A stretch of DNA of 64,000 nucleotides, from the NCBI GenBank assembly GCA_964016885.1, contig OZ024747.1, positions 6,758,001-6,822,000 on the forward strand, read 5' to 3'. Positions 37,101 through 40,100 of this stretch are shown piece by piece. A model generated the notes under the pieces. It made no database searches, was not told the origin of the DNA, and saw only the letters and a list, made by a program, of their open reading frames with translations. The DNA is from Eledone cirrhosa. Its lineage: Eukaryota. The translations under genes and the position numbers were made by a program. Every line of letters starts with the position of its first letter. The first letter of the stretch is position 1.

Positions 37101-40100
37101 TAATACATATCAACATTTTCTTTCCATCGCACATGTTATTAAACCCTTAAATATTATTCTTAATACATATTAACATTTTCTTTTCATCGCACATATTATT
37201 AAACCCCTCAATATACAAACCTTAACTTTACATTATTTTTCTCTTCGTTAATTTTCAAATTCTTTTAATTTATACATTATCTTCCAACGGTTTTCAACCT
37301 CTCTATGTAAAACAATATATCTTTCTCAGTTATAAAAGCTATCTCTCTCTCTCTATCACCCATCTCTCCTCCTATCTCATCCTTCCTCATTATACTCCTC
37401 CCTCTCCACTTTTTACTCTCATCTCCTCCTCTTTTTCAACCTTTCCACCCCCCCCCCCCTCAAAATAAAATATTTTTCCCAATATCACACATCAATCTAA
37501 AACTACTTCTCATATGTTGATTTAAAACTGAACTATCCACAAGTGTTTTTTAACCTTCATATCATGTCTTCCTGTTTTATCTGATGAAAACACAAATATT
37601 ATTGCATGATGATATTTGTTTTTGAAATGCGCATAATAAAATACATGGAACTCTTTTAACCATCTTTTGTTCTTATATATATATATATATATATATATAT
37701 ATATATATATATAAATATAAATTACCGAGAATCGTATTTCAGCTCAGGAATTAACGAAAAACAACTTCCGAGATGTGTGGCAAGCGCTCGATGATTCAGA
37801 TGAATCAGAGCTACAACATACGTTAAAGGCCAAACACACTGAGACGATGGTTAAACAAACATCCACACAGCCAAAGAAACGACCAAGTAATTCGGGTCAA
37901 AGAATAAAAATATATGTGATTGAAAATTTACCCGGACCCCTGGAAGGTTGGTAAAATCCAATATTTGGGTTTTTGCAACTCCTAAATCAAGTACTGTCCA
38001 CTTACATAAAAAATGTTAGGCTTCTGGTAAGATGATTGAACAAGGAAGCCACTTTATCAACAGGTTTTTGTTCAATTGCTAAATCAAAGTGTGACTATTA
38101 CTGACCCCACGTGGAGTTCAGCAAGGGAGGCAACACTTATTTTAGGCGAATGAATTCAGTTGTGTATAATATTGCAAGAATGCAAAACATCACAAATCGA
38201 ATAAAGCTCTTGACAGAATGGTTAAAGTTAACAAGCTATTCATCAGTCAATAGAATCAACTAAAAAAATCAAGAAAATTAACTGCTCAATAGCTAGACTC
38301 TGGAGATTTATACAAATATAAATTAGCGAGAATCGTATTTCGGCTTAGGAATTAACGAAAAACAACTTCCGAGATGTGTGGCAAGCGCTCGATGATTCAG
38401 ATGAATCAGAGCTACAACATAATATATAATATATATATATTATATATATTATATATATATATATATATATTATATATATATATATATATTATATATATAT
38501 ATATTATATATATATTATATATATATATATATATTATATATATATATATATTATATATATATATATATTATATATATATATATATTATATATATATATAT
38601 ATATATATATATATATTATATATATATATTGTATATAATATATAAGAACAAAAGATGGTTAAAGGAGTTCCATGTATTTTATTATGCGCATTTCAAAAAC
38701 AAATATCATCATGCAATAATATTTGTGTTTTCATCAGATAAAACAGGACATGATATGAAGGCTAAAAAACACTTGTGGATAGTTCAGTTTTAAATCAACT
38801 TAAAACTGAATCAGTTTTAAATCAACTTAAAACTGAATCAGTTTTAAAACTGAACTATCCACAAGTGTTTTTTAGCCTTCATATCATGTCCTCCTGTTTT
38901 ATCTGATGAAAACACAAATATTATTGCATGATGATATTTGTTTTTGAAATGCGCATAATAAAATACATGGAACTCCTTTAACCATCTTTTGTTCTTATAT
39001 ATTATGTATACTCCAGTCCCACAAACTGTAGAGTGCTTCTTATCCGATATCTGCATTGCTTTATTGTACTACAATAAAACTCACCTCCTACATTATATAT
39101 TATATATATATATATATTATATATATATATATATATTATATATATATATATATTATATATATATATATATTATATATATATATTATATATATATATATAT
39201 TATATATATATATTATATATATATATATATTATATATATATATTATATATATATATTATATATATATATATTATATATATATATATATTATATATATAGT
39301 AGAATAATCGAGTATCGAAAAATCGGCGCACGAGTTCACGATAAACAAAATTCGAAATGAGCGGCAGAGGGCTCAATAATTCAGATAAATCAGAGCTATA
39401 ACTATCGTTAAAATACCGTCACACATAGAACAGGTCTATAATCAACCATATGACCGAAAAATTGCGATCTGGAAGATTCGGGACACTCAGATCAAATATC
39501 AATAAATCAATAAATCAAATGAATGTAAAAAGCATACCCGGACCCGCTAGAAAGATGGTAAATCTAGCTTCTTGGGTTTCTGTAAATCCTTAAACTGCCC
39601 TCTATCAGCTCACATAAAAATATATAAGACTTCTAGGAGCCAGCAGACCGGAATTTACTTCCTCAACAAGCCTTTGTCCGAACGAATGAAAAGGCATAAC
39701 CCAGGCTGAAAAAGCACATGGAATTCAGCAAGGGAGATAACCTCTATATCCGCAAAAAATATTCGGGAAAATGTGGAAATACACATATCGAATAAGAGTG
39801 CTCAATAGACATGTTAAAATAAACAGGAGCTATTCATCATTTAATAGAATCGACAAAAAATGAACAATAAAATTAACTGGTCAATAGCTAAGTCTAGAGC
39901 TAAATATAGTAGAATAATCGAGTATCGAAAAATCGGCGCACGAGTTCACGATAAACAAAATTCGAAATGAGCGGCAGAGGGCTCAATAATTCAGATAAAT
40001 CAGAGCTATAACTATCGTTAAAATACCATATATATATATTATATATATTATATATATTATATATATTATATATATATATTATATATATATATATATTATA

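What the first reader, a model, noticed from the sequence alone, without database searches (positions are those of the whole stretch)
37573..38998. Three hammerhead ribozyme copies, two back-to-back in a fold-back palindrome, inside ARH3 intron 2
Seen: a complete type I hammerhead core (stem I TGTTTTAT/ATAAAATA, CUGAUGA, long stem II, GAAA, self-complementary stem III AUGCGCAU, AUA site) at 37573-37643(+), 38675-38745(-) and 38895-38965(+). The last two sit in an inverted duplication (38641-38795 / 38843-38998) with a reiterated junction. Known: Penelope-like elements carry minimal hammerheads with palindromic stem III that are thought to act as dimers. Inference: the two plus-strand copies ~1.3 kb apart are both in the ARH3 pre-mRNA and could dimerise and cleave the intron, while the antisense copy could mask one of them by duplex formation. 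The stem II closing pair is A-U rather than the usual G-C.
Basis: partly seen in the sequence, partly recalled or inferred. Interest (0 to 1): 0.75.

Follow-up and report, generated by a model that had tools for sequence, protein, structure and literature searches.

The report
Penelope retrotransposon ends inside ARH3 intron
The three hammerhead (self-cutting RNA) motifs are real, but they are the ends of two separate insertions of a jumping gene whose motif occurs about 20,000 times in this genome, and the antisense copy between them is predicted to block the pairing they would need to cut the ARH3 transcript.

Summary
Observation confirmed: three identical 71-nt type I hammerheads (two sense, one antisense) in the 13.7-kb intron 2 of an intact ARH3 gene. 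They are pseudo-LTRs of a young Hydra-clade Penelope-like retrotransposon (RT plus C-terminal GIY-YIG, (TA)n targets, about 19,900 intact motifs). Copy 1 ends a 5'-truncated insertion. Copies 2 and 3 are a second, two-armed insertion. That palindrome is the family's ordinary footprint: 46 of the first 100 listed copies sit in such pairs. The proposed copy 1:copy 3 dimer is predicted not to form: the antisense arm pairs first with copy 1, then with copy 3, and forcing the dimer costs 113 kcal/mol. Copy 5' ends pile up at a likely capped start 123 nt upstream of the cut (21 of 90), not at the cut, so templates were likely uncut RNA. The A-U closing pair is family-wide; sister subfamilies carry G-U (2,414) and G-C (591), A-C only 40. 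No RNA data were available. The scan noted two-armed, capped-start Hydra insertions before on other DNA of this genome. Verdict: new member of a known kind, low interest.

The parts
28036..48187 (+). ARH3 (ADP-ribosylhydrolase) host gene, 7 exons: 28036-28174, 30101-30218, 43896-44109, 45548-45741, 46504-46610, 47340-47416, 47981-48187; intron 2 = 30219-43895
   Evidence: open 351-aa spliced frame; PF03747 E 3.9e-10 in the last exon
36095..36147 (+). Tail-only stump of the same element (+84 to +136 relative to the cut site), likely a third, very short insertion
36168..36273 (-). Insertion A, inverted arm: tail plus the last bases of the pLTR (+31 to +136)
36271..37673 (+). Insertion A, 5'-truncated body: end of the ORF, 3' UTR and pLTR, ending at the short (no-tail) end in (TA)n
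   Evidence: 92% identity to genomic copies over 1.4 kb
36272..36682 (+). C-terminal GIY-YIG endonuclease fragment of the element ORF with its stop codon
   Evidence: 136 of 136 aa identical to the C-terminus of the 809-aa open frame in L162
37510..37516 (+). TCATATG; A37512 (-123 from the cut) is the likely capped transcription start of the element
   Evidence: 21 of 90 tail-anchored copies start at -125..-123; G before the junction in 41 of 100; motif seen in the G-U and G-C subfamilies too. The start itself is inferred.
37573..37643 (+). Hammerhead copy 1 (pLTR of insertion A); predicted cut 3' of 37635
38632..38801 (-). Insertion B, inverted arm (short end, no tail) holding hammerhead copy 2 at 38675-38745; predicted cut at 38683 on the - strand
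38802..38842 (.). Reiterated junction of alternating sense and antisense pieces (6-16 nt) of the element's first bases, likely repeated template switching
   Evidence: sequence; similar reiterations in L027, L144, L158; covered by contigs
38843..39093 (+). Insertion B, sense arm: pLTR with hammerhead copy 3 (38895-38965, predicted cut 3' of 38957) and a tail of about 90 nt ending at +136 in (TA)n
   Evidence: 9,919 exact copies of a 37-nt piece of the tail

Best explanation
The three hammerheads are the pseudo-LTR ends of two independent insertions of a young, high-copy Hydra-clade Penelope-like retrotransposon in a (TA)n cluster of ARH3 intron 2, and they are predicted to be catalytically silent passengers in the ARH3 pre-mRNA. 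Shown: the sequence identity, the link to an RT plus GIY-YIG ORF, the copy number, the two fixed 3' ends (about +45 and +136) with one on each arm, the 5' pile-up at -123 and the absence of a pile-up at the cut. Inferred: the element protein likely opens both strands of (TA)n and primes reverse transcription at two internal sites of an uncut, capped RNA that starts at -123. The two cDNAs run to the RNA's 5' end and are joined head to head, giving the palindrome and its stuttered junction. In the host transcript the antisense arm would pair with copy 1 while nascent and with copy 3 afterwards. Two free sense copies would then never coexist, and the lone copy has only a 2-bp helix III.
For: Copy number: 16,824 A-U, 2,414 G-U and 591 G-C intact motifs. 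The motif is linked to a unit of about 3.3-3.5 kb with an RT (YRDD) and C-terminal GIY-YIG ORF, with many open frames of 800+ aa at 93-97% identity. Hydra-clade motifs DKT, CxCX5C, CxxC before E, CxH after N and no CCHH are present (against PMC8557442 section 11). Among the first 100 listed copies, 23 of 25 close pairs are (-,+), 17 of them 71-301 nt apart; the window pair is 203. 40 of 42 two-armed insertions have one tailed and one short arm. 5' ends: 21 of 90 at -125..-123 against 0.5 expected, and 1 in the 7-nt window round the cut against 1.2 expected. In the genome-wide list of ends at -3..+8 (496 matches), my hand tally of the first 100 gave 14 indels and 86 ends spread flat, 8 at +1 against a mean of 7.2 (30 of them checked by script). 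Folding: hairpin of copies 2+3 -272, isolated dimer -32.7, active monomer -6.4 kcal/mol. In the nascent RNA all 71 nt of copy 1 pair with copy 2, and the forced dimer costs +113 kcal/mol. Papers: inverted 5'-truncated copies and a one-sided tail are standard for PLEs (PMC8557442 passages). Two internal RT start sites, uncut RNA as the main substrate and protein-assisted cleavage were shown for an Anolis PLE (PMC11167929 parts 1-2 of 4). A single minimal PLE hammerhead showed no detectable cleavage (PMC4209133 parts 1-2 of 4).
Against: No cleavage or expression data. The folds are equilibrium models at 37 C; helicases, A-to-I editing or splicing factors could open the hairpin. One sense copy is always left unmasked, and short-helix-III monomers can cut slowly (22% in 1 h for an axolotl motif; most invertebrate retrozyme hammerheads cut efficiently; PMC7229834 passages). 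Two of 84 arms in two-armed insertions begin exactly at +1 (L054, L152), so a minor cut-RNA template is not excluded. About half of the Gs before the -123 junction can be templated by the partner arm (by eye), which weakens the cap argument. The clade call rests on motifs and not on a tree; RWK reads RWI, and the unit is longer than the '<3 kb' typical of Hydra elements. Pfam gave no RT or GIY-YIG hit on the ORF; the Atlas neighbours carry those families in under half of their members.
Confidence: 0.85

Rival explanations
1. One reading: copies 1 and 3 form a double hammerhead in the ARH3 pre-mRNA and cut intron 2, tuned by the antisense copy, as a regulatory device.
For: Both copies are sense and 1,322 nt apart. 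An isolated dimer is nearly the best fold of two free copies (-32.7 against -33.7 kcal/mol). Conserved intronic hammerheads exist in amniote RECK, CTCL and DTNB (PMC6155905 passages), and an intronic ribozyme affects Cpeb3 (PMC10919898, start of abstract in listing).
Against: The penalty in context is +113 kcal/mol, and copy 1 is captured by copy 2 before copy 3 exists. These are two independent, very young insertions identical to thousands of other copies. The geometry is the family's default.
Confidence: 0.04
2. The unmasked sense copy cuts slowly as a monomer, in trans with another transcript, or with help from the element's protein in cells where the element is active. This would cause a small incidental loss of ARH3 pre-mRNA with no regulatory role.
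For: The core is almost invariant and pairing is kept across subfamilies, so the motif is likely functional in its element. PLE protein activates hammerhead cleavage in vitro. There are about 20,000 potential partners in the genome.
Against: Helix III has 2 bp, and the active monomer is 4 kcal/mol above the minimum fold. A single minimal PLE hammerhead was inactive. There is no genomic pile-up at the cut. The window copies lack the ORF start region that the Anolis protein needs (extension to this family is inference).
Confidence: 0.15
3. The main effect on the host is not cleavage but the roughly 165-bp near-perfect intronic hairpin, which would be a substrate for A-to-I editing or small-RNA processing.
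For: Hairpin of -272 kcal/mol with 163 matched positions; long duplexes are ADAR substrates (established knowledge, recalled).
Against: No RNA reads to test it. Private variants in 124 arms show no A>G excess (A>G 13, T>C 11, A>T 14). This reading is compatible with the best explanation and does not replace it.
Confidence: 0.35
4. The palindrome is an assembly or library fold-back artefact.
For: The arms are almost perfectly complementary.
Against: The arms differ by a 3-nt deletion and have different, family-typical 3' ends. The same form recurs in 42 other places sampled. The junction is covered by contigs of public runs.
Confidence: 0.01

Closest known systems
Hydra clade of C-terminal EN+ Penelope-like elements (Craig et al. 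2021, PMC8557442; Hydra-1_Obim, Penelope-13_HM)
   Same: Single RT plus C-terminal GIY-YIG ORF; DKT, CxCX5C linker, no CCHH, CxxC/CxH round E and N; (TA)n targets; a hammerhead in the pLTR. Penelope-13_HM is listed with a 5'-truncated inverted copy and the motif on both strands. Many listed Hydra hammerheads also lack G10.1-C11.1, having U-U or G-U there (File S1/S2).
   Different: A distinct family. Its hammerhead is unlike that of Hydra-1_Obim (15-bp helix II, A-U closing pair, 8-nt palindrome ATGCGCAT). The unit is 3.3-3.5 kb, RWK reads RWI, and the tail is about 90 nt instead of 30-40.
Minimal PLE hammerheads (Cervera and de la Pena 2014, PMC4209133)
   Same: Type I topology, palindromic 15.2-16.2 and loop 3, enlarged helix II, mostly dispersed truncated copies, pairs on opposite strands 100-700 bp apart.
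   Different: No extra base between 9 and 10.1, A-U in place of the 'highly conserved' G10.1-C11.1, and an 8-bp helix I.
PAc Poseidon element of Anolis (Frangieh et al. 2024, PMC11167929)
   Same: Two fixed RT start sites defining the tail, AT-rich target, uncut RNA as template.
   Different: Different clade. Here the evidence is genomic only, the two ends lie about 90 nt apart, and both lie upstream of the ORF.
Metazoan non-LTR retrozymes (PMC7229834; bioRxiv 2026.07.22.740005)
   Same: Type I hammerhead, PLE-related ends, dimer-dependent motifs.
   Different: Retrozymes are non-coding tandem repeats of 170-400 nt. These copies are truncated ends of an autonomous coding element and are not in tandem.
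Conserved intronic hammerheads of amniotes (RECK, CTCL, DTNB; PMC6155905 passages)
   Same: Type I hammerhead in the sense strand of a host intron.
   Different: Those are conserved across species. These are recent insertions identical to thousands of other copies.

Membership tests
Type I hammerhead ribozyme | CUGANGA and GAAA core, three helices, NUH site, helix I open | tested here: met
   core nearly invariant in 67 copies; 96% of cells paired in alignment A1, whose rows were picked by closing-pair patterns
Type I hammerhead ribozyme | Match to an Rfam hammerhead model | tested here: not met
   no hammerhead family at gathering score or at E<=10; likely because of the long helix II and 2-bp helix III (inference)
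Type I hammerhead ribozyme | Self-cleavage | not testable with these tools
   needs an assay
Minimal PLE hammerhead (Cervera 2014) | Palindromic 15.2-16.2 and loop 3 allowing a dimer | tested here: met
   ATGCGCAT; dimer -32.7 kcal/mol in isolation
Minimal PLE hammerhead (Cervera 2014) | G10.1-C11.1 pair and an extra base after A9 | tested here: not met
   A-U and no extra base in these copies; G-C occurs in a sister subfamily
Hydra-clade PLE | Single ORF, RT then C-terminal GIY-YIG | tested here: met
   809-aa open frame in L162 with YRDD and LIY..YFG; window fragment identical; no Pfam hit; Atlas neighbours with RVT_1 and GIY-YIG in under half of members
Hydra-clade PLE | DKT in place of DKG | tested here: met
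   DKT at 133
Hydra-clade PLE | CxCX5C linker | tested here: met
   at 668
Hydra-clade PLE | [quoted passage not shown] | tested here: met
   one C between LIY and YFG; CxxC at 768, CxH at 796
Hydra-clade PLE | RWK motif | tested here: inconclusive
   RWI at 47
Hydra-clade PLE | (TA)n insertion preference and a canonical hammerhead in the pLTR | tested here: met
   nearly all tail ends that do not run on into the ORF go into (TA)n
Hydra-clade PLE | Placement in the clade on an RT tree | not tested
   no tree with reference elements was built
Neptune / Nematis PLE | CX2-5CxxC linker plus CCHH motif | tested here: not met
   CCHH absent, linker is CxCX5C; my first guess of Neptune was dropped
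Naiad / Chlamys PLE | N-terminal endonuclease, no canonical hammerhead | tested here: not met
   EN is C-terminal and the hammerhead is canonical
Non-LTR retrozyme | Non-coding tandem repeats of 170-400 nt, each with a hammerhead | tested here: not met
   copies are ends of a coding unit; same-strand neighbours lie 3.3-3.5 kb apart
Domesticated intronic hammerhead (RECK type) | Conserved at the orthologous intron across species | not testable with these tools
   no related genomes held; identity to thousands of young copies argues against it

The most novel reading that the evidence does not exclude
This retrotransposon lineage has been disarming its own ribozyme as it expanded. The helix II closing pair moved G-C to G-U to A-U in successively younger and larger subfamilies (591, 2,414, 16,824 copies) while never breaking (A-C 40). 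Uncut capped RNA is the template. The head-to-head two-armed insertion places an antisense shield upstream of the sense hammerhead whichever strand the host transcribes. Together these would let about 20,000 hammerheads sit in a genome without cutting host pre-mRNAs, and three natural variants would make the open question of what PLE hammerheads are for directly testable.
Probability: 0.2. Interest if true: 0.6.

Novelty: new member of a known kind. Interest (0 to 1): 0.22.

Why it matters
For ARH3 it most likely does not matter: these are passenger insertions. At family level the copies bear on an open question, since PMC8557442 calls hammerhead function in EN+ PLEs 'still unclear'. The genomic ends agree with the in vitro result that uncut RNA is the template and that two start sites make the tail. 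The G-C, G-U and A-U subfamilies offer a natural series for testing whether weaker ribozymes go with larger expansions.

Tried and rejected
Rfam: no hammerhead match; the miRNA-family hits are just the hairpin. A DNA search of the own genome gave nothing because it skips very common words; patterns were used instead. Pfam on two ORF copies gave no RT or GIY-YIG hit. Neptune membership (my first guess) was rejected on the motifs. No listed contig spans the whole of 38760-39090, and run X4 has no cover on the junction; neither is evidence. Editing scars in DNA copies: no A>G excess among private variants in 124 arms. Pile-up of 5' ends at the cut: not found; the script counted L191, L192 and L201 as ends although they are small indels. 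A special fold of the tail was not supported by stability alone (z -1.15). Earlier scan notes by sequence: none for the pLTR or for the neighbouring 37705-38421 element. Six paper searches found no description of this family, of its closing-pair series or of a 5' pile-up at a PLE start, and no measured effect of A-U at 10.1-11.1; that A-U lowers activity is recalled, not sourced. The library lacks most subscription papers. Repbase, the supplements of PMC4209133 and PMC11167929, and bioRxiv supplements were not seen and may list this family.

Full report
1. Observation. In each, TGTTTTAT pairs with ATAAAATA (helix I, one G-U). CTGATGA is followed by a 15-pair helix II with one C-U mismatch and an A-U closing pair, then GAAA. 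ATGCGCAT gives a 2-bp helix III as a monomer or 8 bp as a dimer, and the triplet is AUA. AUA is a natural hammerhead triplet (PMC1636495, start of abstract in listing). Rfam does not recognise the motif at any threshold tried, and its folding energy is no better than shuffles, so the case for a hammerhead rests on the core and on variation among copies (section 4). The host gene is an intact ARH3: seven exons on the + strand give an open 351-aa frame and PF03747 passes its cut-off in the last exon. Intron 2 runs 30219-43895.

2. What it belongs to. A 38-nt piece of the motif has 2,656 exact matches in the 3.0-Gb genome, a piece of the downstream tail has 9,919, and core-anchored patterns give about 19,900 intact motifs. 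Fetched loci show the motif at the ends of a 3.3-3.5-kb unit with one ORF, RT then GIY-YIG. A protein search scored 69 of its candidates, at 93-100% identity, many in open frames of 800 aa or more. The 809-aa frame of L162 has RWI, DKT, YRDD, a CxCX5C linker, no CCHH, and CxxC and CxH round the conserved E and N. These are the features given for the Hydra clade (PMC8557442 section 11). That paper's supplement lists an octopus member, Hydra-1_Obim, with a different hammerhead, and an element with an inverted 5' copy bearing the motif on both strands (finds and part 2 of 59 read). No tree was built.

3. Anatomy in the window. Insertion A is an inverted tail arm (36168-36273) joined to a 5'-truncated body (36271-37673). 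The body carries the last 136 aa of the ORF, identical to L162, the 3' UTR and copy 1. Insertion B is an inverted short arm with copy 2 (38632-38801), a stuttered junction, and a sense arm with copy 3 and the tail (38843-39093). A tail-only stump lies at 36095-36147. An unrelated repeat and (TA)n separate A from B. So copies 1 and 3 are neighbours by shared target preference. The palindrome is the norm: among the first 100 listed copies, 25 neighbour pairs lie within 5 kb and 23 of them are (-,+), 17 at 71-301 nt; the window pair is 203. In 90 loci of 3 kb, 40 of 42 two-armed insertions have one arm ending at +136 and one at about +45 relative to the cut (the short end is blurred by TA). This matches the two RT start sites shown for an Anolis PLE (PMC11167929 parts 1-2 of 4).

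4. The A-U pair. It is family-wide, not decay of these copies (67 tail-anchored copies). Genome counts for positions 10.1 and 11.1 are A-U 16,824, G-U 2,414, G-C 591 (slightly looser pattern) and A-C 40. Only pairing combinations were amplified, although this may rest on two mutations inherited by many copies. Singleton rates in samples of 25 were 2.5% (G-C), 1.3% (G-U) and 0.6-1.2% (A-U), and G-U lies closer to A-U than G-C does. That suggests the order G-C, G-U, A-U. The A-U sample was picked by an exact tail match, which favours young copies, so the G-U to A-U step is weak. Non-G-C pairs are common among published Hydra hammerheads, and compensatory changes at this pair are known in cricket satellites (PMC2837043 passages).

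5. Were the templates cut? Of 90 tail-anchored copies, 21 begin at -125..-123 (0.5 expected) and 1 begins within -2..+4 of the cut (1.2 expected). A genome-wide pattern for ends at -3..+8 gave 496 matches. By hand, the first 100 hold 14 indels and 86 ends spread evenly, 8 of them at +1 (30 checked). Against this, 2 of 84 arms start exactly at +1. At -123, 290 copies of one sequence variant have a base other than the element's C just before the start, and 28 of 30 checked are true junctions. The base is G in 41 of the first 100, against 21% expected, as copying of a cap would give; about half of these Gs could come from the partner arm. Both arms of insertion B stop 4-9 nt short of this site. 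The simplest reading, which is inferred, is reverse transcription of uncut, capped RNA from two start points, with the two cDNAs joined at the RNA's 5' end.

6. Could it cut ARH3? Two free copies would form the double hammerhead (-32.7 kcal/mol), but the hairpin of copies 2 and 3 is -272 and the copy 1:copy 2 duplex is -242. In RNA ending just after copy 2, all 71 nt of copy 1 pair with copy 2. In the full 1.6-kb region copy 2 pairs with copy 3, and forcing the 1:3 dimer costs 113 kcal/mol. One sense copy is always left alone with a 2-bp helix III. A single minimal PLE motif showed no cleavage and dimers only low cleavage (PMC4209133 parts 1-2 of 4). Some short-helix monomers do cut slowly (PMC7229834 passages), and PLE protein can assist cleavage, so a small leak is possible. 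These are models at 37 C with no RNA data. Because the arms join at their 5' ends, the antisense arm precedes the sense hammerhead on either transcribed strand. This follows from the geometry; whether it is selected is untested.

7. Verdict. This is a new family of a known clade showing known insertion structures. Earlier notes of this scan reached the two-armed and capped-start readings on other DNA of this genome; they are unchecked AI notes and not independent support. The closing-pair series was not in the notes shown or in the six paper searches. Other papers seen: bioRxiv 2026.07.22.740005 part 1 of 5, PMC6155905 passages, PMC2817708 outline, PMC11300833 one passage. Interest 0.22.

Noticed in passing
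window 37705-38421 and 39291-40027: Two related (about 74%) non-coding elements of 717 and 737 nt in (TA)n, each with direct terminal repeats (116 and 127 nt; units 601 and 610 nt). This looks like the partial tandem of a non-autonomous Penelope-type repeat. No canonical hammerhead core was found; earlier scan notes describe permuted hammerheads in such repeats, which I did not test.
   Followed up: partly
window 31440-34511 (-): A 1,024-aa open LINE-type frame (endonuclease, RT, PHD-like finger) antisense in the same ARH3 intron.
   Followed up: partly
window 42479-43726 (-): 5'-truncated copy of a related LINE (RT and PHD-like finger), ending about 170 nt before ARH3 exon 3.
   Followed up: partly
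window 1444-13762 (-): RhoGAP gene with a long low-complexity last exon (PF00620); ARHGAP11-like by recall only.
   Followed up: no
window 51651-58116 (+): MIF4G-domain gene exons downstream of ARH3 (PF02854 below its cut-off).
   Followed up: no
window 35627-35911: Two-unit direct repeat of about 153 nt with TA-rich spacers just upstream of the PLE cluster.
   Followed up: no
L171-L175, L206-L250: Older G-C and G-U sister subfamilies keep TCATATG at the inferred start and the same tail end, although the flanks differ by 15-20%.
   Followed up: partly
window 6360-6764 (-): Fragment resembling a DDE transposase (weak DDE_3 match, E 0.055) inside the RhoGAP gene region.
   Followed up: no
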